Shown piece after piece: positions 3,214-36,078 of a DNA stretch of 64,000 nt (positions are counted from its first letter, which is position 1; every line of letters begins with the position of its first letter). Source of the stretch: Escherichia phage chee24; sequence record NC_047885.1; one strand, given 5' to 3'. Under the pieces are notes generated by a model that saw only the letters and a list, made by a program, of their open reading frames with translations, was not told the origin of the DNA and ran no database searches. Made by a program: the position numbers and the translations under genes.

Positions 3214-3501
3214 CTAAGCAACTACATTTTTTAGGAATTTGATCCCTTTCTTTTTCTTCTTATATTTCCACGTTAATGGATTCTGTCGATTATGAACGCT
3301 TGAGATCTTTGTCTCGTCAAAGTTCTTCAATATCATGTAATCACAGGATAATTGTTCTAGTGGAATGTGATCACCGTCAAAAGCGTATACATAAGGCTGT
3401 TGACTAGCACGATAATGATAGACTTTGTTAATTCTACGTTTCAGCGACTTATCCGCGCAGTAAATAAAGAAGTTTTCAGGATGCATCAGCATCTCCTTCA
3501 A
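3214..3501 (-). CDS. hypothetical protein (95 aa)
   Basis: ORF in the minus-strand series. Confidence 0.5.
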   Translation of the reverse strand: MKEMLMHPENFFIYCADKSLKRRINKVYHYRASQQPYVYAFDGDHIPLEQLSCDYMILKNFDETKISSVHNRQNPLTWKYKKKKKGIKFLKNVVA

Positions 3502-3503
3502 TT

Positions 3504-3578
3504 TGGTGCACCCTGTTCGTATCGAACGAACCTCTCAAGCTCTTCAGGCAAGCGCTAATCCATCTCAGCTAAAGGTGC
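3504..3578 (-). tRNA. tRNA, probably Phe (anticodon GAA), CCA encoded
   Basis: Acceptor GCACCTT/AGGGTGC, D-arm GCTG..TAGC, perfect T-arm GTTCG-TTCGATA-CGAAC; anticodon stem has two U-U mismatches. Confidence 0.5.
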
Positions 3579-3584
3579 AAATTT

Positions 3585-3665
3585 TGGCAAACCCACTAGG
3601 ACTCGAACCTAGACCGTACGGTTTTGGAGACCGACATGCTGTCCAGTAACACTCTAGGAATGCAG
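3585..3665 (-). ncRNA. tRNA-like element with Trp-like anticodon loop (CTCCAAA) but no acceptor-stem pairing
   Basis: T-arm CTAGG-TTCGAGT-CCTAG and 3' CCA present; no complementary 5' strand found within tRNA distance. Confidence 0.3.
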
Positions 3666-3669
3666 AAAT

Positions 3670-3763
3670 TGGTACACCCACGGAGAATTGAACTCCGATT
3701 CTCAGATTGAACTCCGATTCTCAGATTGAAATCCTGATGTCCTAGCCATTAGACGATAGGTGT
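3670..3763 (-). tRNA. tRNA-Glu-like gene (anticodon UUC) with a 19-bp tandem duplication at the variable-loop position
   Basis: Removing one repeat copy gives a 75-nt cloverleaf (acceptor ACACCTA/TGGGTGT, D-arm GTCT-AATGGCTA-GGAC, anticodon stem TCAGG/TCTGA, T-arm CGGAG-TTCAATT-CTCCG); as encoded it is 94 nt. Confidence 0.45.
3687..3730. repeat. perfect 19-bp tandem duplication (ATTGAACTCCGATTCTCAG x2) plus a 6-bp partial third copy
   Basis: Exact copies at 3687-3705 and 3706-3724. Confidence 0.85.
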
Positions 3764-3771
3764 ATTAAATT

Positions 3772-3859
3772 TGGTGGGCGTTAATGGAGTCGAACCACTC
3801 GAGTCGCAATGACCAGGGATTTACAATCCCCTCCGCTACCACTTACGGAATAAACGCCC
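3772..3859 (-). tRNA. tRNA-Tyr (anticodon GUA), long variable arm, CCA encoded
   Basis: Acceptor GGGCGTT/AACGCCC, anticodon stem GGGGA/TCCCT with loop TTGTAAA, 88-nt length with extra arm. Confidence 0.6.
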
Positions 3860-3987
3860 ATATTTAGAAGCATTCAAATACTTGTTTAAACACTTTTAAA
3901 TATGTTTCCGAATTAGATAACTATTATACCAAGTTTTAAGGCACTGAGCAAGTCAAATTTTAAAGAACTTGCTCAGTGCTGTATTAG

Positions 3988-4263
3988 TTAGTCGAACTTA
4001 GGAGTGATAGTTAAGGAGAACGGAAGTTCGAAAACTTCTTCGCCCTCATTACTAACGGTAACTACACGACCTTTAAGTTCAGACATTAAAATATCAATAT
4101 CAGCTTTTGCATCTGGAGCCATGCCAGCTTCAATACATTTAGCTTTAACTTCCGGTAAAAGCTCTACGTTATAGAGATAGAGCCACTCAATCTCACCTTC
4201 CCAGTCTTCCCAGGATTTGCAGATTGCACTTTCAATACCAGTTGCTACAACACGATTTTGCAT
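3988..4263 (-). CDS. hypothetical protein (91 aa)
   Basis: ORF with promoter-like TTGCCT-18-TATAAT (minus sense) at about 4290-4345 upstream. Confidence 0.55.
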   Translation of the reverse strand: MQNRVVATGIESAICKSWEDWEGEIEWLYLYNVELLPEVKAKCIEAGMAPDAKADIDILMSELKGRVVTVSNEGEEVFELPFSLTITPKFD

Positions 4264-4353
4264 TAATTAACTCCTTCATCAATTTATATAACTATTATAC
4301 CAGAAATTTAAAGTAAAAGGCAAGTACATTTTTAAAAATTCTGTTTGGAGGAG

Positions 4354-4560
4354 CTAAACTCCAGATTTTTCGGCCAAGTCTAGACTAATAAGAGTTATAG
4401 CCATAATTGCTGCACCGTGTTCTTTTTCTCCGGTGTTTTTAGCAGAGTCTATAATATCCTTAATCTGTTCGTAATAACTTTTTACTTCTTGTTCAATGCC
4501 TGCCTCGGCTATCATGCCTTTAGCCATGAATCGTTGCATGGTAATTTCAGGATTAGCCAT
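4354..4560 (-). CDS. hypothetical protein (68 aa)
   Basis: ORF; start overlaps the stop of the 4553-4720 ORF. Confidence 0.5.
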   Translation of the reverse strand: MANPEITMQRFMAKGMIAEAGIEQEVKSYYEQIKDIIDSAKNTGEKEHGAAIMAITLISLDLAEKSGV

Positions 4561-4720
4561 GTTGTTTCTCCAGTTTCATTTTTAATAGTTTACAGATGAA
4601 ATCAACGTCTTCATCTGTGCCTAAGTCTCTATCCTCAAGGGTCGCCTTGAAGTTTTTCGTCAATTCCATGAGGATGACTTCCCTAGAACGACGTGTTGGC
4701 GGAGGTGGATGTCTATACAT
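4553..4720 (-). CDS. small hypothetical protein (55 aa)
   Basis: Unlisted ORF below the track cutoff, coupled to the downstream gene. Confidence 0.35.
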   Translation of the reverse strand: MYRHPPPPTRRSREVILMELTKNFKATLEDRDLGTDEDVDFICKLLKMKLEKQHG

Positions 4721-4735
4721 CTTATTTCCTTAATT

Positions 4736-4812
4736 TGGTAGGGGTGGTGGGATTCGAACCCACAAAACCTGAATTTTAAGTCCAGTACCTATGCCAATTC
4801 GATTACACCCCC
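4736..4812 (-). tRNA. tRNA with anticodon UAA (Leu-like, but short variable loop)
   Basis: Acceptor GGGGGTG/CACCCCT, T-arm GTGGG-TTCGAAT-CCCAC, anticodon stem CTGGA/TTCAG with loop CTTAAAA. Confidence 0.5.
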
Positions 4813-5107
4813 ATGTAATCAGTTTATTAGTTGATACATATTATAGCCTAAAGAAAACCCTACTACTAATCCTACGAACCAACCAATATAATAATCTTTT
4901 AATTTCACGGGTGTCAACCTCGTTCAATATCTAGAGAAATACCACAGGTAGGATTAATGCCTGTGCCTTTGCACGTCGGACAAACCCAGATATTACAGAA
5001 TGTATCCCCTGCTTCTGCATCAGAACTTTTCCAACTCCTAGACAGTTAGGACAGGCACATTCTTCTAGCTCTTGCTTGAGTTCTTGAAACTTAGACATAT
5101 AGTTTCC

Positions 5108-5296
5108 TTATTCAATTACTTTTGAGGCTTCAAGGGAGTCGATATAGTGTACGTTTTCTACCATGATCATATAATCTGCCACTTTATCCATAGCCTGAGC
5201 TTCAGAGGTAGCCCTGGCTAACCTATATCCTTTTTTATATTCATCCGGGTATTCCCTATCTGGAATAAACACAACACAAACTAGGTATAGTTCCAC
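5108..5296 (-). CDS. hypothetical protein (62 aa)
   Basis: ORF in the minus-strand series. Confidence 0.4.
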   Translation of the reverse strand: MELYLVCVVFIPDREYPDEYKKGYRLARATSEAQAMDKVADYMIMVENVHYIDSLEASKVIE

Positions 5297-5317
5297 TTGT
5301 AACCTCTCTAATCAAGA

Positions 5318-5395
5318 TGGTGGCTCCCCGAGGATTCGAACCTACGTACCTTCCGGTTATGAGCCGGATGCTCATACCATATGAGCTTGAGAACC
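5318..5395 (-). tRNA. tRNA-Met or Ile2 (anticodon CAU), CCA encoded
   Basis: Acceptor GGTTCTC/GGGAGCC, anticodon stem TCCGG/CCGGA with loop CTCATAA; T-stem imperfect. Confidence 0.55.
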
Positions 5396-5401
5396 AGAAT
5401 T

Positions 5402-5490
5402 TGGCGGAAGAAGTGGGAATCGAACCCACAAGGCTATATTTCAAACCGACAGATTAGCAATCTGCTGCAATACCGTTATGCTATTCTTCC
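5402..5490 (-). tRNA. tRNA-Ser (anticodon GCU), long variable arm, CCA encoded
   Basis: Acceptor GGAAGAA/TTCTTCC, anticodon stem GCAGA/TCTGT with loop TTGCTAA, T-arm GTGGG-TTCGATT-CCCAC, 89 nt. Confidence 0.6.
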
Positions 5491-5505
5491 GAATTTATAA
5501 GATAT

Positions 5506-5534
5506 ATTATATTAGAAATTTAGCTTCATAGCAA
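5506..5534 (-). promoter_or_regulatory. sigma70-like early promoter (minus sense TTGCTA-17-TATAAT) upstream of tRNA-Ser
   Basis: Plus-strand ATTATA 5506-5511 and TAGCAA 5529-5534; same conserved promoter family. Confidence 0.55.
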
Positions 5535-6030
5535 GAAAATTTTTCAAGTTTTCGGTAGACATCTCATCCACATCTACAGGAGAAACAAATCCATTTAATT
5601 GTCTAGCAAATTTTTCACCAGCAGGATCATTATCCCCAACAGCTACCAATTTAAAAGGTAGTAATTTCAATTGCTTTAACAACGCTTTTCCTGGAGAAGA
5701 ACCCAACATTGCCAGGGCTGGATAACCAGCGTTATGTAATGCTACGGCCTTAAATACAGATTCCGCAACCAATACTACTTTTTCATCCCCATTGAGAGTT
5801 TCCAGCCCCCATACACACTGTGTAGTAGAATAAGTAAAATACTTAGCTTCAAAAGGAGATTTACCATGACCTTTTGGAGCAGAAGGATTATAAGTCTGAT
5901 AGCCTCTCAACATCCCAGAGAAGTCATACAATGGGACTGTTAGCCATCCTTCCGGACTTAACCAGCAATGATATTTATCTGTATCAAACCCTCTAGATAA
6001 GAGATGTTCTGTTAGTTCATCAACAGTCAT
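5512..6030 (-). CDS. TOPRIM-domain protein, primase-like paralog lacking a zinc finger (172 aa)
   Basis: VVLVAESVFKAVAL and VAVGDNDPAG motifs (Glu plus DxD) align with the TOPRIM region of the primase at 37630-38520. Confidence 0.55.
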   Translation of the reverse strand: MTVDELTEHLLSRGFDTDKYHCWLSPEGWLTVPLYDFSGMLRGYQTYNPSAPKGHGKSPFEAKYFTYSTTQCVWGLETLNGDEKVVLVAESVFKAVALHNAGYPALAMLGSSPGKALLKQLKLLPFKLVAVGDNDPAGEKFARQLNGFVSPVDVDEMSTENLKNFLAMKLNF

Positions 6031-6087: not shown

Positions 6088-6165
6088 TTGAATTTTTTAA
6101 CTTTTTAGAGGAAAATCACAGGATGCTTACGGGTAGCAGGTAAGTGGTCAGGACCGAAATTTGTG

Positions 6166-6195
6166 ACCCCACTAAAAATCTGGGGTCAATTTTTA
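6166..6195 (+). terminator. rho-independent terminator-like hairpin at the 5' edge of the plus-strand cassette
   Basis: Stem GACCCCA/TGGGGTC with 9-nt loop, followed by AATTTTTA. Confidence 0.5.
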
Positions 6196-6203
6196 AAGAC
6201 CCC

Positions 6204-6232
6204 TTGACATTTTTGCCGGGGTAGTGTAAAGT
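6204..6232 (+). promoter_or_regulatory. sigma70-like promoter (TTGACA-17-TAAAGT) for the plus-strand cassette
   Basis: Consensus -35 at 6204-6209, 17-bp spacer, -10 TAAAGT 6227-6232, AGGAGG RBS at 6280. Confidence 0.6.
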
Positions 6233-6295
6233 ATATGTTATGGATGAGTGATCAAAGAGACACACATTTTCTATATACTAGGAGGTGTCAAAAAA

Positions 6296-7275
6296 TGACA
6301 GAAGAAGTAGCTAAGAGTCCTGAAACCGTCGCTAGCGTAGCAGCAGAACTGCATCGTCACGAGGAATCAGATAAGAAAAAGTGGGAGAAAGTCAAAGCCT
6401 ACGAAGAAGAACATCGTGAACACGATGATAAAGATGAAGAAGATGACGATGATGAACATTGTCATAAATATGGAAAACATAAAATGCAAGAACCAGTAAA
6501 CGTATTTACTAATGGCTTCCCTGGCATGGGTGCATTCCCAGCTAACGCAAGTGCTTTCGGTGGAGAAGGTATGGGTCTATTCGGAGCTATCCTAATCGGT
6601 GCTCTATTAACAGGCGGATTTGGTGGTTTTGGTGGTTTTGGCCGTGGTGCTGGCGTTGCCGCTGAAGGGACTGCTGTGGACGCGATCCTTTCTAACCAAG
6701 ATACTGCAAGTATTCTAGCTGCAATCAATACTACTCGTACAGAAGCTAACCAGGGCACTGGGGCTGTTCTAAGCGCAGTAAACGGTGTGGGAGCTGCTCA
6801 AGCTGCTAGCACTCAGCAAGTTCTGACTACTATCTACGGTACAGGTGCTAATCTGTCAAACCAGATCTGTGCTGAAACTCGTAACGTTATTCAGGGTCAG
6901 TTCGATCTTTCTCGTCAGATGGATCAATCTTTCGCTGCTAACCAGATCGCACGTGCTCAAGATAAGTTTGACTCTGCTCAGATTGCTTTCCAGCAGTCTA
7001 TTCAGACCAATAACCAGTTTGCCGCTGTTCAGGCTCAGATGTGTGCTAACCAGAATGCTATAGAGCGTCAGCTTGCTGAATGTTGCTGTGAACTTCAGAC
7101 TGCGATCGCTGGTGTAACTACTGCGCGTATCCAGGACGAACTGAATGAATGCCGTCTGCGTGAAGCAATCGCTCAAGGTAGTGGTGCTAACGGTCAGGTA
7201 ATTAACCAAATCGCTGTAAGTCTTGGTGCTATCACTCAGACTCTGGCTGGTCTGCAGGCTAAACTGCCGGCTTAA
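6296..7275 (+). CDS. hypothetical protein (326 aa): acidic N-terminus, Gly-rich hydrophobic segment, Gln/Ala-rich C-terminal half
   Basis: Track ORF 6235-7275 trimmed to the ATG at 6296 behind AGGAGG; segment GMGLFGAILIGALLTGGFGGFGGFG looks like a glycine-zipper membrane helix; codons look more GC-rich than neighbours. Confidence 0.6.
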
Positions 7276-7296
7276 AATTAAGGGGAGGAGCCCATT

Positions 7297-7713
7297 ATGA
7301 GTAAATATGGTTTTGTAAACAACGGATTTAATCAACAAATGGGCTCCCAGCAGCCCGTTCCGGGTCTGGATAATCCTTACCTACAACAGTTGCAACAGCG
7401 TTTAGCAGAAGCGCAACAGATGCAGCAACAACTCCAGCAAAACCCTGGAAGTGTGAGTCCTATGCAAATGATGCAGCAAATGAGCGGGCAGTCGCAAATG
7501 CCTCAACAAATGCAGCAACAGGTGCCTCAGCAGCAAGTTCAGCAACAAACCCAACAACCGCAGGTTTCTGCGGAAGGACAGGCAGTACTAGCTCTTTTCG
7601 AAGATTTCGCAAAGACAGAGGATGGGAAACAGCTTGTATCACTTATGGGTAAGTTTAATAGCTTCTGCCAAAGCCAGGTTGCAAAAGCTCAAAATGGTGA
7701 TAATAACTCCTAA
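7297..7713 (+). CDS. Gln-rich low-complexity protein (138 aa)
   Basis: ATG behind GGGGAGGAG RBS; long QQ(M/L)QQ tracts. Confidence 0.55.
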   Translation: MSKYGFVNNGFNQQMGSQQPVPGLDNPYLQQLQQRLAEAQQMQQQLQQNPGSVSPMQMMQQMSGQSQMPQQMQQQVPQQQVQQQTQQPQVSAEGQAVLALFEDFAKTEDGKQLVSLMGKFNSFCQSQVAKAQNGDNNS

Positions 7714-7722
7714 GGAGGAATT

Positions 7723-7917
7723 ATGTGTTGCAGAAAATCTGTTTCGTGCTGCCCAATGCCTGTAGCACGTTGTTGCTCTCCAGCAATGTTTACACAAATA
7801 CCGGCGTTCAATCCCTTTGCCTTTAAGCCTACTCTTATCCTGCCCCCTAGAGTAGATTTTCAGTCAAGATTGGCCTCCCGTATGGGTGGTTGCTGTAACA
7901 AGAGTATATGGTTCTAA
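7723..7917 (+). CDS. small Cys-rich protein (64 aa) with four Cys-Cys doublets
   Basis: ATG behind AAGGAGG RBS; sequence MCCRKSVSCC..RCCS..GGCCNK. Confidence 0.5.
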   Translation: MCCRKSVSCCPMPVARCCSPAMFTQIPAFNPFAFKPTLILPPRVDFQSRLASRMGGCCNKSIWF

Positions 7918-7933
7918 AGAACCAATAATAAAA

Positions 7934-7966
7934 AGCCCCTAGTCGAAAGACTTAGGGGCTTTTCTC
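7934..7966 (+). terminator. rho-independent terminator ending the plus-strand cassette
   Basis: Stem AGCCCCTAGTC / GACTTAGGGGCT with GAAA loop, followed by TTTTCTC. Confidence 0.7.
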
Positions 7967-7975
7967 TTATCTTAA

Positions 7976-8014
7976 ATACAGAAAAGCCCTGCGCTCTCCA
8001 GGGAACGCAGGGCT
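7976..8014 (-). terminator. rho-independent terminator downstream of the SPFH gene
   Basis: Stem AGCCCTGCG/CGCAGGGCT; minus-sense T-tract from plus AGAAAA. Confidence 0.6.
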
Positions 8015-8038
8015 TACTTCGAATATTACGTGTGGGTA

Positions 8039-9095: not shown

Positions 9096-9597
9096 TTTAA
9101 GTATTTTTAAGAACTCTCGTAAAAACTCTTAAAAATACAGACGATACCGGGAGAGTCATAAGTCTCACTCATTAAGTATTTCAAGACAAAATACAGTAAC
9201 GTCTATTATTTTCCAGTTTAAGTCAAGGTGACTTAGTGGTTATGTCCTGCGGTATACTGAGGACTAGGTTAGGTTAGGGTCATGACTCCCCACCTTTTTG
9301 CTGCTACTCAACAGGAGTTATCGCGAATTACCTGTGCTATTGTGCACCATTAGTGGCATCTCTCATGCCAGCATTTCCCACTTTGTGGATAGTTTGAAAA
9401 ACTACTCCGATATGGAGAAAGAACTTCACTATCCTAGAATACCTTCTAAAGTTCTTCTTTAGCCTGGACATAGTTAAATCGTAATAAAACTATTCAGCAG
9501 ACTGGTTGGTTAGTCTGGAACCAACTACCGCGTGGTTTAGGCAGTGCGCAACTAACCTCGGAAGCTTTTACATTAAAAGCACCAGTTATCCAGTTCT

Positions 9598-9670
9598 TAC
9601 CGACCGTAGGATTCGAACCTACATCTTCCACCAGTTACGGCTTGATAATACCGTTTTATACTAGATCGGC
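9598..9670 (-). ncRNA. tRNA-like element (canonical acceptor stem and T-arm, irregular core)
   Basis: Acceptor GCCGATC/GGTCGGT and T-arm GTAGG-TTCGAAT-CCTAC; no standard anticodon arm identified. Confidence 0.3.
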
Positions 9671-9893
9671 AGTGTTACTACATAAGTGATTTCCACACCC
9701 CACTATCAGTAAATTAGAGAAGAGTTTAGGGGAGAGGTTTCAGACGCCCCATTTTACACGTTCTAGCCACTAACCGGGATTGCCGCCCCCTGTGTACTAG
9801 TTTTCCAACTAACCCACCGACTCTATTCAATGCGCTCCGGTTGGGATTCTGCACTCAGCGTAATCGGCTCGCTGTTCTCTAATTTATGAATAT

Positions 9894-34538: not shown

Positions 34539-35318
34539 ATGAAAATCGAAATTCCAACACAATGTCCCTCTTGTGGTTCTAAGCTAGATCTTGTCAACGG
34601 ACAATTATTCTGTCGTAATAAGTCCAACTGTCCAGCGCAATCAAGTAAGTTAATTGAGAACTTCTGTACAAAAATGAAGTTAAAGGGCTTTGGCCCAAAA
34701 ACTATTGAGAAGCTGGAGCTGACGAAGATTTCAGAACTATTTTACCTAACCGAAGAAGATTTGGTTAGAGCCGTGGGTAGCAAGGTTGCCGCTAAGTTAA
34801 TTAGCGAATTAAATAATAAAGTTCGCGGAGACATTGACTTTGGTTCAGTTCTCGGTTCTTTAGGAATCCCTCTAATCGGAGAGGTTGCAGCAAAGAAATT
34901 GTCCCAAAATTGCACCAGTTTTCAAGATGTGAGAGCTGATGGCAGAGCTGGAGAAAATTATAAAGCCTGGCTAAATTCCCCACAAGGCAAGGATGTTATC
35001 GAATTACCGTGGAAATTCACAACTGGTATTAAAGGTGCTAAAGCTGAGGTCATCATCACTGATGGTCTAGTAGCCCAACCAAACGGAATAACGGTATGTA
35101 TTACCGGATCTTTGCAAGATTTTGCAAATAGAACGGATGCAACAAACTATTTAGAAGGTCTAGGATATACGGTTAAGAAATCCGTTACCAAAGACGTCAA
35201 ATACCTAATCTGTGAGGATGAATCGAAGCGTTCTTCCTCATCTTATAAGAAAGCCGAAACGAATGGGATAGAAATCCTGTCGATTAAAGAACTATTGGAG
35301 AAAAATAATAATGTCTAA
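34539..35318 (+). CDS. NAD-dependent DNA ligase, C-terminal part (zinc finger, HhH, BRCT-like)
   Basis: CPSCGS...CRNKSNCPAQ zinc-finger motif; ATG at 34539 behind AAGGAAGAAA. Confidence 0.7.
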   Translation: MKIEIPTQCPSCGSKLDLVNGQLFCRNKSNCPAQSSKLIENFCTKMKLKGFGPKTIEKLELTKISELFYLTEEDLVRAVGSKVAAKLISELNNKVRGDIDFGSVLGSLGIPLIGEVAAKKLSQNCTSFQDVRADGRAGENYKAWLNSPQGKDVIELPWKFTTGIKGAKAEVIITDGLVAQPNGITVCITGSLQDFANRTDATNYLEGLGYTVKKSVTKDVKYLICEDESKRSSSSYKKAETNGIEILSIKELLEKNNNV

Positions 35319-36078
35319 ACTGAACTGGAACGTAGAAGGTGTAACCGAGTCTCTGAAAGCAAAAGCCACTGCTCTGGGTGTTGCTGTAATCTCTCAAGAA
35401 CAAGTAGCTGCTATCGCTGCTGAACTGGCTGCTGAAACTGGCAAAGACGTTACCGCTCGCTCTGTTGGCTCTAAGCTGCGTAAAGAAGGTTTCGAAGTAC
35501 AGAAAGCTAACGAAGTACAGAAATCCCCATGGACTCCTGAGCAGGAAGCTGAACTGGTTGATTTCCTGAACGCTCATGCTGGTCAGTATACTTATGCTGA
35601 AATCGCTGCTGCTGTAGCTGGTGGTCAGTTCGGTGCTAAGCAGGTACAGGGTAAAATCTTGAGTCTGGAAATGACCGCATCTGTTAAGCCGACCGAAAAA
35701 GCTGCTGCTGTTCGTTCCTTCACTCCGGATGAAGAAACTGACTTTGTTAATCAGGTTGTTGCTGGAGCTACTATTGAAGCTATCGCTGCTCACTTCGGTC
35801 GTAATATCAAGCAGATCCGTGGTAAAGCTCTGAGTCTGCTTCGTGAAGGTCGTATCGCTGCTATGCCGGTACAGGAAACTTCAAGTGCTAAAACTCGTGA
35901 AGATCTGTTAGAAGGTCTGGATCTGGCTAACATGACTGTTGCTGAGATCGCTGAGAAAACTGGTAAGTCTGAGCGCGGTGTTAAATCTATGCTGTCTCGT
36001 CGTGGTCTGGTTGCTAAGGACTATGATGGTGCCGCTAAGCGTGCTAAACTGGATGCAAAAGCTGCGGCTGCTGAATAA
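35311..36078 (+). CDS. abundant-type protein with three internal HTH-like repeats (255 aa), putative DNA-binding
   Basis: Three repeats (TYAEIAAA...GKILSL, IEAIAAHFG...GKALSLL, TVAEIAEKTG...KSML); codon choice looks strongly host-optimal. Confidence 0.55.
   Translation: MSKLNWNVEGVTESLKAKATALGVAVISQEQVAAIAAELAAETGKDVTARSVGSKLRKEGFEVQKANEVQKSPWTPEQEAELVDFLNAHAGQYTYAEIAAAVAGGQFGAKQVQGKILSLEMTASVKPTEKAAAVRSFTPDEETDFVNQVVAGATIEAIAAHFGRNIKQIRGKALSLLREGRIAAMPVQETSSAKTREDLLEGLDLANMTVAEIAEKTGKSERGVKSMLSRRGLVAKDYDGAAKRAKLDAKAAAAE

What the first reader, a model, noticed from the sequence alone, without database searches (positions are those of the whole stretch)
6166..7966. Self-contained plus-strand cassette (terminator, promoter, three genes, terminator) among minus-strand early genes
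A hairpin terminator (6166-6195) directly precedes a consensus-like promoter (6204-6232), followed by three tightly spaced genes with strong RBSs and a terminator (7934-7966). All flanking genes are on the opposite strand and the cassette looks more GC-rich and host-codon-like than its neighbours. Its products are unusual: a protein with an acidic N-terminus, a glycine-zipper-like membrane segment and a Gln/Ala-rich tail; a Gln-rich low-complexity protein; and a 64-aa protein with four Cys-Cys doublets. This is the layout of a moron-type accessory module, and no homolog of known function was recognised for any of the three.
Basis: partly seen in the sequence, partly recalled or inferred. Interest (0 to 1): 0.75.

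Follow-up and report, generated by a model that had tools for sequence, protein, structure and literature searches.

The report
Dispensable three-gene membrane cassette of phage T5
This is a real, self-contained early operon of a T5-like phage (T5 genes T5.077-079) that the phage can lose without harm in the laboratory; it encodes a membrane-anchored helical protein and two small partners of unknown function, and the same trio also occurs in unrelated phages.

Summary
The window is a T5-like phage. The cassette is the already annotated T5 unit: promoter P12, genes T5.077/078/079, terminator ter1. Promoter, three genes with strong ribosome-binding sites, downstream terminator and opposite-strand flanks are confirmed. 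The upstream "terminator" is a hairpin peculiar to this strain. "Host-like codons" is not supported: GC is high because the proteins are Ala/Gly/Gln-rich.

It is an accessory module. Viable deletion mutants lack it (T5 st0, apparently also T5n and SP15m). About half of T5-like genomes lack it. In one pair of collinear genomes it is a clean 2.2-kb insertion/deletion.

It is not host-derived or recently acquired. Distant T5-like contigs (45% protein identity) keep the same promoter hexamers and layout. The trio also occurs in an N4-like contig and in Pseudomonas phage KPP23, where gene 3 is unannotated.

Protein 1 belongs to a large, unnamed, apparently phage-only family whose only invariant feature is a Cys-Cys-Cys triplet.

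Best reading: an inner-membrane-anchored, cytoplasm-facing coiled-coil complex with a niche-specific role (counter-defence or phage competition). It borders the anti-retron gene Rad. Genes 1+2 alone were already negative against three retrons. Function remains unknown.

The parts
6164..6188 (.). Inverted repeat (8-bp stem, 9-nt loop). It marks the left edge of the block that is near-invariant among T5-like phages. It is probably not a functional terminator.
   Evidence: Fold -12.8 kcal/mol, z -2.9 here. In T5 and relatives -7.3 to -9.2, z -0.4 to -1.0, and none in L034/L035. The conserved block starts here, while L030's sequence to the left is unrelated.
6189..6232 (+). Promoter (T5 'P12'): A/T tract AATTTTTAAAG, -35 TTGACA (6204-6209), 17-nt spacer, -10 TAAAGT (6227-6232).
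   Evidence: Scan. Annotated as P12 in NC_005859 and AY734508. Invariant in 9 T5-like loci. Same hexamers and A/T tract in L034/L035, whose protein 1 is 45% identical.
6233..6294 (+). 5' untranslated leader with the Shine-Dalgarno AGGAGG at 6280-6285.
   Evidence: Essentially 100% conserved among T5-like loci although gene 1 has dS 0.4-0.58 in the same pairs.
6295..7275 (+). Gene 1 (T5.077 homolog, 326 aa). It has an N-terminal helix with the L+xHExxDKK motif, an acidic/His-rich linker, one hydrophobic Gly-rich TM segment (residues 94-112 = nt 6574-6630), and about 200 aa of long helices with the invariant CCC (residues 263-265 = nt 7081-7089).
   Evidence: ORF. PHROG 8119, function unknown. 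Family of 34 close clusters, 281+ clusters with the A3 profile, and 646 representatives. CCC is the only invariant in 120 sequences. KD19 1.72 for the TM segment, and the C-flank is more positive in 99/120 members. AF2 pLDDT 69 with an all-helical core. dN/dS about 0.15.
7297..7713 (+). Gene 2 (T5.078 homolog, 138 aa). It has a conserved N-terminal helix (NPYLQQLQQRLxEAQ), a variable Gln/Pro-rich linker, and a conserved C-terminal box (EGQAVLALFEEFAKTEDGKQLVSxMGKFNSFCQS) with one invariant Cys.
   Evidence: Alignment A10. PHROG 7894, function unknown. No kinase or other Pfam domain. Its divergent homologs lie on the same contigs as protein-1 homologs. dN/dS 0.10-0.22.
7723..7917 (+). Gene 3 (T5.079 homolog, 64 aa). 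A basic (+7) micro-protein with Cys-Cys at residues 2-3, 9-10, 17-18 and 57-58, and a Pro/aromatic-rich middle containing FNPF. No TM segment or signal peptide.
   Evidence: Present with all 8 Cys in the 18 viral-contig T5-like loci plus the T5 and SP15 loci and in 220 phage records, mostly unannotated. Positional counterparts start with MCC or MCGCGC in KPP23, the N4-like L006, L034 and L035. Hydropathy and charge.
7931..7963 (+). Rho-independent terminator of the cassette (T5 'ter1', annotated as bidirectional).
   Evidence: -21.3 kcal/mol, z -5.9, followed by a T-run. T5 annotation. An equivalent plus-strand terminator follows gene 3 in L034 and in KPP23. It lies at the right breakpoint of the indel.
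7984..8015 (-). Convergent terminator of the neighbouring minus-strand band-7 (SPFH) gene. It is the right boundary of the unit, not part of it. It contains the GCGC of T5's annotated major nick site.
   Evidence: Scan. Fold -25 kcal/mol, z -4.5. T5 misc_feature 'major DNA single-chain interruption' lies between the two terminators.

Best explanation
The cassette is a dispensable, self-contained early transcription unit of T5-like phages: sigma-70-type promoter P12, three genes, terminator ter1.

Proposed model (inferred). The three products form one complex on the cytoplasmic face of the host inner membrane.
- Protein 1 is a single-pass anchor. Its acidic N-terminal tail faces outward (N-out). 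Its long (about 200 aa) helical domain, carrying an invariant Cys-Cys-Cys triplet, lies in the cytoplasm. It is probably abundant.
- Protein 2 is a soluble adaptor: two short conserved helical modules joined by a Gln-rich spacer.
- Protein 3 is a basic micro-protein with an N-terminal cysteine cluster.
- The conserved cysteines of all three proteins probably join the complex through a shared metal site or other thiol chemistry.

Proposed role (inferred). The module is not needed for growth on laboratory E. coli. It probably gives a niche-specific advantage at the membrane, most likely counter-defence or competition with other phages. This fits its position at the edge of the phage's tRNA/anti-defence island, next to the anti-retron gene Rad.

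Shown here: the unit's anatomy, its dispensability, presence/absence at a fixed site, purifying selection, co-inheritance of the three genes across unrelated phage lineages, phage-restricted distribution, and the invariant CCC.

Inferred only: membrane topology, complex formation, the role of the cysteines, abundance, timing of expression, and the biological role.
For: Unit anatomy and conservation.

Dispensable: the T5 st0 deletion fuses T5p066 to T5p079, removing T5p067-078. The published ~8-kb deleted region ('TRR') of T5n and SP15m was tested as nine fragments. Fragment F9 is exactly SP15 ORF076+077, that is genes 1+2 (PMC11555353).

Indel: L030 positions 3492-5724 are replaced by 111 bp in bobsandoy.

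Frequency: 221 records with gene 1 against about 436 T5-like records with the neighbouring band-7 gene.

Trio co-inherited: KPP23, an N4-like contig with vRNAP, and distant T5-like contigs. Protein-2 homologs sit on the same contigs as protein-1 homologs.

Selection: dN/dS 0.1-0.2 for genes 1 and 2.

Membrane and topology: one segment with KD19 1.72. The C-flank is more positive than the N-flank in 99/120 family members. Proteins 2 and 3 have no hydrophobic segment.

Helical core: AF2 pLDDT 69 with a 120-sequence alignment, including a 107-residue helix.

CCC is the only invariant column in 120 sequences, and one Cys is invariant in protein 2.

Likely high expression: Fop 0.70, rank 3 of 54, 11 of 11 Arg codons CGT.

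Neighbour is the Rad homolog: SP15 ORF75 is the published anti-retron determinant (preprint 10.1101/2023.03.15.532788; map).

Phage-only: one hit on a 2-kb MAG contig in 185,579 genomes.
Against: - No experiment or homology assigns any function. Pfam, NCBIfam, PADLOC, PDB sequence profiles and Foldseek (PDB, BFVD) are all empty.
- Genes 1+2 expressed from pBAD did not rescue deletion phages from retrons Eco2 or Eco7, nor Ec83 in the preprint. The only counter-defence test so far is therefore negative, although it lacked gene 3 and covered three retrons only.
- Topology rests on the positive-inside rule alone. A 90-residue N-tail would have to cross the membrane.
- The Gly-rich segment might not span the membrane at all.
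- AF2 inter-helix packing is unreliable (pTM 0.31).
- The number of CC doublets in protein 3 varies from about 1-2 to 4 between lineages. The short-form subfamily has a different partner protein, so the 'thiol-linked trio' may not be general.
- High Fop is only a proxy for expression.
Confidence: 0.45

Rival explanations
1. Classical moron. The cassette would be a recently acquired, host-derived or foreign gene block with host-like codon usage, inserted between older phage genes.
For: Own promoter and terminator. Opposite strand to its neighbours. GC about 2 SD above the window mean. Present in some relatives and absent in others at one site. Found in unrelated phage lineages.
Against: Gene 1's GC3 is ordinary, and its E. 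coli-versus-phage codon likelihood ranks 29 of 54. The GC excess is explained by Ala/Gly/Gln content. The same unit with the same promoter hexamers occurs in T5-like contigs at 45% protein identity, so it is an ancient resident. There are essentially no homologs in 185,579 bacterial genomes. T5 is virulent, so there is no lysogen to benefit (established knowledge).
Confidence: 0.08
2. Lysis or lysis-timing accessory. Protein 1 would act like a spanin or fusion protein (hydrophobic Gly-rich peptide plus long coiled coil with cysteines). Protein 3 would act like a Pro-rich Rz1-type partner. Alternatively the trio would modulate holin timing, as T4 rI/rIII do.
For: TM or fusion-peptide-like segment followed by long helices with conserved Cys. 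Protein 3 is 64 aa and Pro-rich. Weak PDB profile hits to the influenza HA2 fusion peptide plus helix A (E about 0.01). In two short-form contexts (L007, L014) the family gene follows tail or tail-fibre genes, where lysis genes often lie. Spanin and rI/rIII mutants are also viable in the laboratory (established knowledge).
Against: The HA2 hit is not reproduced by an independent family profile. Protein 3 has no signal peptide or lipobox. Charge bias predicts a cytoplasmic, not periplasmic, helical domain. The promoter is a sigma-70 consensus type inside the early region, not the lysis cluster. No endolysin is adjacent in any context.
Confidence: 0.1
3. Membrane scaffold for phage DNA replication or assembly, analogous to phi29 p16.7. 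That protein is an abundant early membrane-anchored coiled-coil protein that organises a phage process at the membrane and is helpful but not essential.
For: Early-type promoter. Optimal-codon bias suggests abundance. TM anchor plus long helical domain predicted to be cytoplasmic. Dispensable in the laboratory. Basic protein 3 (+7) could bind nucleic acid. In L015 and L006 the gene sits among replication genes.
Against: Protein 1 is strongly acidic (-17) with no DNA-binding domain. A core-process helper would be expected in all T5-like phages, not about half. There is no sequence or fold similarity to p16.7 or any scaffold.
Confidence: 0.12
4. Metal handling. The Cys clusters (CCC, CC doublets) and the His/Asp/Glu-rich N-terminal linker would bind or sequester Cu, Zn or an Fe-S cluster. 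The module would act like a membrane-tethered metallothionein or metallochaperone.
For: Invariant CCC. Eight Cys in the 64-aa protein 3. His/acidic runs in T5-type protein 1, for example HHYHHHHHHHEH in L030. No signal peptides, so the thiols would be reduced in the cytoplasm.
Against: The His-rich linker is confined to the T5 subgroup. Protein 3 contains many aromatic residues, unlike typical metallothioneins, and its Cys count varies between lineages. No match to any metal-binding family. There is no obvious reason for a virulent phage to need this.
Confidence: 0.1
5. Gene 3 is not a gene. The 64-codon ORF would be a conserved 3' untranslated or terminator-proximal region that happens to be open.
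For: It is unannotated in most records. There are too few substitutions for a meaningful dN/dS. Silent-site divergence is unusually low (dS 0.02-0.17 against 0.4-0.58 for gene 1), as expected for nucleotide-level constraint.
Against: A strong Shine-Dalgarno (AAGGAGGA) sits at the right spacing. An ORF starting MCC or MCGCGC occupies the same position directly after gene 2 in five lineages whose DNA is unrelated. These share a second CC and often an NPF motif.
Confidence: 0.07

Closest known systems
Phage T5 genes T5.077, T5.078, T5.079 with promoter P12 and terminator ter1 (NC_005859 37954-39720; T5p075-077 in AY734508)
   Same: It is the same locus: 96% DNA identity, same order, same annotated promoter and terminator, same flanks.
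   Different: None in kind. The window's own strain and most T5-like records leave gene 3 unannotated. Some call gene 2 a 'cAMP-dependent protein kinase catalytic subunit', which no domain search supports.
Morons of lambdoid/HK97-type temperate phages (autonomous promoter-gene-terminator insertions)
   Same: Autonomous transcription unit. Present or absent at a fixed site between collinear genomes. Not required for lytic growth. Spread across phage lineages.
   Different: The host phage is virulent. Codon usage is phage-like. No host homologs were found. The unit is old within the lineage and keeps its promoter at 45% protein identity.
tRNA-rich region / anti-defence island of T5-like phages (Azam et al., Nat Commun 2024, PMC11555353; preprint 10.1101/2023.03.15.532788): tRNA-Tyr, ORF75 'Rad', ORF71/72
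   Same: The cassette is SP15 ORF076/077 (fragment F9 of that study), directly adjacent and divergent to ORF75/Rad. It lies in the region tested as lost in the viable T5n and SP15m deletions.
   Different: F9 gave no rescue from the retrons tested. It has no similarity to any known anti-defence protein. It is the only plus-strand unit in the island, and it also travels outside T5-like phages without the tRNAs, as in KPP23.
Phage phi29 p16.7 (early membrane-anchored coiled-coil organiser of DNA replication)
   Same: N-terminal membrane anchor followed by a cytoplasmic coiled coil. Early, probably abundant, and dispensable in the laboratory. This is an analogy from established knowledge.
   Different: No sequence or fold similarity. 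Protein 1 is acidic and lacks a DNA-binding domain. It has the CCC triplet and two dedicated partners.
Two-component spanins (lambda Rz/Rz1)
   Same: A TM protein with long helices and conserved Cys, plus a small Pro-rich Cys-containing partner. Viable when deleted.
   Different: No lipobox or signal peptide on the small protein. Predicted cytoplasmic orientation. Early-region location. There are three genes, not two.

Membership tests
Moron (autonomous accessory insertion, Hendrix/Juhala sense) | Own promoter and own terminator flanking the gene(s) | tested here: met
   TTGACA-17-TAAAGT, conserved and annotated as P12. Terminator -21.3 kcal/mol, z -5.9.
Moron (autonomous accessory insertion, Hendrix/Juhala sense) | Present in some genomes and absent from close, otherwise collinear relatives at the same site | tested here: met
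   2,233 bp in L030 against 111 bp in bobsandoy, with flanks 89-91% identical. 221 against about 436 records.
Moron (autonomous accessory insertion, Hendrix/Juhala sense) | Nucleotide composition or codon usage distinct from the phage, indicating foreign origin | tested here: not met
   GC is raised, but gene 1's GC3 is 0.33 against a mean of 0.31. E. coli-versus-phage codon likelihood ranks 29 of 54.
Moron (autonomous accessory insertion, Hendrix/Juhala sense) | Expressed from a prophage to the benefit of the lysogen | not testable with these tools
   T5-like phages are virulent (established knowledge), so the criterion cannot apply as defined.
Anti-defence island gene of T5-like phages (TRR/ADI) | Lies within the region lost in viable spontaneous deletions | tested here: met
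   The st0 deletion removes T5p067-078. The F9 primers map to genes 1+2.
Anti-defence island gene of T5-like phages (TRR/ADI) | Neutralises a defined defence system when expressed in trans | tested here: inconclusive
   Published fragment screen: only F6, F7 and F8 rescued, and F9 (genes 1+2, without gene 3) did not, against Eco2, Eco7 and Ec83. Other systems were not tested. No PADLOC or anti-defence homology.
Two-component spanin (Rz/Rz1) | Outer-membrane lipoprotein partner with signal peptide and lipobox Cys | tested here: not met
   Protein 3 starts MCCRKS, has no hydrophobic h-region (max KD19 0.85) and no lipobox.
Two-component spanin (Rz/Rz1) | Inner-membrane partner with N-in/C-out topology and a periplasmic coiled coil | tested here: inconclusive
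   Charge bias predicts the opposite orientation, with the C-flank more positive in 99/120 members. This is a prediction only.
Two-component spanin (Rz/Rz1) | Located in the lysis cassette next to holin and endolysin | tested here: not met
   Neighbours are the Rad-like Toprim gene, tRNAs and a band-7 gene.
Class I viral fusion protein (influenza HA2-like) | Detectable sequence homology of fusion peptide plus heptad region | tested here: not met
   The A2 profile hits HA2 at E about 0.01 only. The independent family profile A3 gives no HA2 hit. Foldseek is empty.
cAMP-dependent protein kinase catalytic subunit (database name of gene 2 in some records) | Protein kinase domain | tested here: not met
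   No kinase domain in Pfam or NCBIfam. The protein is 138 aa and 28% Gln.
Protein-1 family (unnamed; PHROG 8119 and relatives) | Gly-rich hydrophobic segment, long helical region, invariant CCC followed by a conserved turn and helix | tested here: met
   PHROG 8119 E 1.6e-197. CCC invariant in 120 sequences. Profile search finds 646 representatives.

The most novel reading that the evidence does not exclude
The trio would be a previously unrecognised kind of phage-encoded, thiol- or metal-linked complex anchored to the host inner membrane. It would be shared by T5-like, N4-like and Pseudomonas siphophages. It would carry out a new counter-defence or inter-phage exclusion mechanism. The unannotated Cys-cluster micro-protein (gene 3) would be an essential component, which would explain why the published genes-1+2 fragment was inactive.
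Probability: 0.2. Interest if true: 0.75.

Novelty: new member of a known kind. Interest (0 to 1): 0.45.

Why it matters
T5 is a model phage, and its deletable tRNA region is now known to hold counter-defence genes. This cassette is the one autonomous protein-coding operon in that region that still has no function.

Three results here make it a well-defined, testable candidate for new phage-host membrane biology:
- The three genes travel together through unrelated virulent phages.
- Protein 1 belongs to a family of hundreds of unnamed phage proteins built around an invariant Cys-Cys-Cys.
- The third gene is a micro-protein missing from most annotations, and from the only published functional test.

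If it turns out to be ordinary, the practical gains are corrected annotations and a clean example of an old, mobile accessory unit in a virulent phage.

Tried and rejected
1. Homology to influenza HA2. Protein 1 contains GLFGAI, and the T5-group profile hit HA2 residues 6-85 at E about 0.01. Rejected, because an independent profile of distant family members gave only insignificant coiled-coil hits and Foldseek found nothing.
2. Host-like codon usage. Rejected.
3. Upstream hairpin as a terminator. Rejected as a conserved element.
4. First AF2 model with 26 sequences. pLDDT 48, unusable. The second model with 120 sequences reached pLDDT 69 but pTM 0.31. Only the secondary structure is trusted.
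6. Pfam, NCBIfam, PADLOC and PHROGs give no function for any of the three proteins, nor for the partners of the short-form subfamily.
7. Literature searches for T5.077-079, T5p075-077 and the protein accessions found nothing relevant.
8. Genome-collection scans with broad alignments failed for lack of a conserved stretch. A narrower alignment worked.
9. tRNA adjacency as a general feature. It holds for T5-like phages and the N4-like contig but not for KPP23 or the short-form loci.
10. dN/dS for gene 3. Too few substitutions to interpret.
Full report
IDENTITY OF THE LOCUS

The window is a T5-like phage. It is 100% identical over 3.1 kb to 'T5-like pork27' and its sister isolates, and 96.4% identical to T5. 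It carries 15 tRNA genes.

The finding corresponds to T5 genes T5.077, T5.078 and T5.079. The T5 records already annotate promoter 'P12' in front of them and the 'efficient bidirectional rho-independent terminator' ter1 behind them. A major DNA nick site lies just beyond. So the feature is real and already annotated as a unit, but with no function assigned.

CHECK OF THE OBSERVATION

The three ORFs are as described:
- Gene 1 is 6295-7275 (326 aa).
- Gene 2 is 7297-7713 (138 aa).
- Gene 3 is 7723-7917 (64 aa).
- Each follows a strong Shine-Dalgarno sequence.

The promoter is TTGACA-17-TAAAGT at 6204-6232, a 10/12 match. By itself this proves nothing, because the scan finds 17 such sites in 8 kb against 18.6 expected in shuffles. 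However, the stretch from about 6160 to the start codon is essentially invariant in nine T5-like loci. The same hexamers, and the A/T tract before them, recur in two T5-like contigs whose protein 1 is only 45% identical.

The downstream terminator (7931-7963) folds at -21.3 kcal/mol, z -5.9. It faces the terminator of the convergent band-7 gene (7984-8015).

The upstream 'terminator' does not hold up. It is a good hairpin only in this strain (-12.8 kcal/mol, z -2.9). It is no better than shuffled sequence in T5 and other relatives (z -0.4 to -1.0) and absent in the distant ones. No plus-strand gene lies upstream for it to terminate.

COMPOSITION

The cassette's GC (0.46-0.47) is about 2 SD above the mean of 55 ORFs in the window (0.397 +/- 0.035). 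Gene 1's third-position GC is ordinary (0.33 against 0.31). Its codon choice is no closer to E. coli's genome-wide usage than that of the average phage gene (rank 29 of 54; the E. coli table was taken from memory). The extra GC comes from Ala, Gly and Gln codons.

What stands out is gene 1's enrichment in translationally optimal codons (Fop 0.70, rank 3 of 54; all 11 Arg codons are CGT). This suggests high expression rather than foreign origin (inference).

ACCESSORY STATUS

- The viable mutant T5 st0 has a deletion that fuses T5p066 to T5p079. It removes the cassette, the Toprim gene on its left and the band-7 gene on its right.
- Azam et al. (PMC11555353) describe spontaneous ~8-kb deletions in T5n and SP15m. 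They tested the region as nine fragments. The primers of fragment F9 map exactly to the start of SP15 ORF076 and the end of ORF077, that is genes 1 and 2 without gene 3.
- By tblastn, gene 1 is in 221 phage records and gene 3 in 220. The neighbouring band-7 gene is in about 436 T5-like records at 80% identity or more.
- In Epseptimavirus 'bobsandoy' the band-7 gene abuts NadR/PnuC with no cassette. In L030 the cassette sits between the same genes. BLAST shows that 2,233 bp are replaced by 111 bp, with collinear flanks. Those 2,233 bp comprise an 81-aa minus-strand ORF, the promoter region, the three genes and the terminator.

NOT A RECENT OR HOST-DERIVED ACQUISITION

- Two T5-like contigs with 45% protein-1 identity show the same plus-strand trio among minus-strand genes (310/107/63 aa and 312/106/65 aa). 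L034 has the same promoter hexamers and convergent terminators, and the promoter core is conserved in L035 too.
- The trio also occurs outside the family. In Pseudomonas phage KPP23, ORF074 and ORF073 are homologs of proteins 1 and 2. An unannotated 60-aa ORF with four CC doublets follows, and the annotated ORF072 is in the wrong frame.
- In a 71-kb contig encoding an N4-type virion RNA polymerase, homologs of proteins 1 and 2 are followed by a 49-aa 'MCC...CC...FNPF' ORF.
- A pattern scan of 185,579 bacterial and archaeal genomes with a short-form family alignment found a single 2-kb MAG contig. Within the reach of that scan, the family belongs to phages.

THE PROTEINS

Protein 1 has four parts:
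- a confidently predicted N-terminal helix with a conserved L+xHExxDKK motif;
- an acidic, His-rich linker (T5 group only);
- one hydrophobic Gly-rich segment (residues 94-112, KD19 1.72);
- about 200 residues predicted as long helices.

With a 120-sequence alignment, AF2 reaches pLDDT 69, including one 107-residue helix. pTM is 0.31, so the packing is unknown.

The family is large and entirely unnamed. It comprises 34 clusters close to the query, 281+ clusters with a profile of distant members, and 646 cluster representatives in an exhaustive profile search. The only invariant columns across 120 sequences are three consecutive cysteines.

In 99 of 120 members the C-terminal flank of the hydrophobic segment is more positive than the N-terminal flank. 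By the positive-inside rule, this places the helical CCC domain in the cytoplasm (inference).

Protein 2 has a conserved N-terminal helix, a variable Gln/Pro spacer and a conserved C-terminal box with one invariant Cys. Its divergent homologs lie on the same contigs as protein-1 homologs.

Protein 3 is basic (+7) and has no hydrophobic segment. It keeps all eight Cys in the 18 viral-contig T5-like loci examined, plus the T5 and SP15 loci. Across lineages, the features that are shared are:
- the position of the gene;
- an N-terminal Cys cluster (MCC or MCGCGC);
- a second CC;
- a Pro/aromatic-rich tail, often with NPF.

Genes 1 and 2 are under purifying selection (dN/dS 0.1-0.2). Gene 3 has too few changes to judge.

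A 'short-form' subfamily lacks the N-terminal extension. It is followed by a different conserved partner, a 97-99-aa beta-rich protein.

WHAT IT IS NOT

- There are no hits of known function in Pfam, NCBIfam, PADLOC or PHROGs.
- A weak but repeated PDB profile match to the influenza HA2 fusion peptide (GLFGAI...) was not reproduced with an independent profile.
- Foldseek against PDB and BFVD found nothing.
- The 'cAMP-dependent protein kinase' label on gene 2 in some records has no support.
- Protein 3 has no lipobox, and the unit is not in a lysis cluster. This, together with the predicted orientation, argues against a spanin pair.

CONTEXT AND LIKELY ROLE

The minus-strand gene immediately to the left (5512-6030) is the homolog of SP15 ORF75. 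This is a small Toprim protein published as the determinant of escape from retrons Eco2 and Eco7, and named Rad in the preprint. The cassette therefore sits at the edge of the phage's tRNA/anti-defence island.

In that study only fragments F6, F7 and F8 rescued the deletion phages. F9 (genes 1+2) did not. That test lacked gene 3 and covered three retrons.

My best reading is that the three products form a cytoplasm-facing complex anchored in the inner membrane and held together through their conserved cysteines. The complex would serve a niche-specific function such as counter-defence or inter-phage competition (confidence 0.45 for the architecture-plus-accessory statement, and much less for any specific role).

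The rivals remain open at low probability each:
- a lysis-timing or spanin-like role;
- a phi29 p16.7-like membrane scaffold;
- metal handling;
- gene 3 being non-coding.

VERDICT

The unit is an already annotated, dispensable T5 operon of unknown function.

New here:
- The trio is co-inherited across unrelated virulent phages.
- Protein 1 belongs to a large phage-only family built around an invariant CCC.
- The third gene is a widely unannotated Cys-cluster micro-protein that was left out of the only functional test.

Interest is moderate. This is a good experimental candidate, not a demonstrated novelty.

Noticed in passing
window 5512-6030 (-): The 172-aa Toprim protein divergent from the cassette is the homolog of SP15 ORF75 ('Rad'). 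That gene is the published determinant of escape from retrons Eco2/Eco7. Records annotate it as 'DNA primase'. It also gives a weak PADLOC hit to a DnaG-like domain of DRT systems (E 2.8e-6).
   Followed up: partly
window 7984-8015 (-), GCGC at about 7991-7994: The terminator hairpin of the band-7 gene contains the GCGC that T5 records mark as a major single-strand nick site ('nick 3, 32.6%'). The nick therefore lies between the two convergent terminators at the right edge of the cassette.
   Followed up: no
window 7723-7917; L004 5969-6151: Gene 3 is unannotated in most T5-like records, where the table shows 'none' under the tblastn match. In KPP23 the annotated ORF072 is in the wrong frame, and the real counterpart is a 60-aa ORF with four CC doublets.
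   Followed up: yes
window 7297-7713: Several public records call gene 2 'cAMP-dependent protein kinase catalytic subunit' (kapc). The 138-aa Gln-rich protein has no kinase domain. The name appears to be a propagated annotation error.
   Followed up: yes
window 6295-7917 against L021, L024, L026, L030, L032: Silent-site divergence drops along the cassette in the same genome pairs: gene 1 dS 0.40-0.58, gene 2 0.13-0.62, gene 3 0.02-0.17. The gene 3 C-terminal variants CCNKSIWF and CCTPRVWF look like a compensated frameshift. The cause could be a recombination boundary or nucleotide-level constraint.
   Followed up: no
window 6233-6294: The 62-nt leader between the -10 box and the start codon is 100% conserved among T5-like phages, even though gene 1 is well diverged at silent sites. 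This suggests a regulatory role for the leader, as RNA structure or a binding site.
   Followed up: no
L007 6855-7148; L012 8812-9105; L015 8847-9146: Short-form relatives of protein 1 are followed by a conserved 97-99-aa beta-rich protein (MxSPIT...N+RR...LQN...IYL+K) with no family match. It is a different partner from the Gln-rich and Cys-cluster proteins of the T5-type trio.
   Followed up: partly
L030 3495-3740 (-): An 81-aa ORF with two CxxCxGxG-like motifs lies inside the 2.2-kb segment that is present or absent together with the cassette. It has no Pfam match.
   Followed up: no
window 9597-9671 (-): ARAGORN calls a tRNA-Ser with the unusual anticodon ACT, in the region T5 records annotate as stable 'RNAX' or a pseudo-tRNA.
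   Followed up: no
window 35311-36078 (+): This gene has the highest optimal-codon fraction in the window (Fop 0.84). It encodes a 255-aa protein with a sigma-70 region-4-like helix-turn-helix.
   Followed up: no
window 6568-6591 (protein 1 residues 92-99): Protein 1 contains GLFGAI, identical to the start of the influenza HA2 fusion peptide. It was judged a coincidence of a Gly-rich hydrophobic segment, because an independent family profile does not hit HA2.
   Followed up: yes
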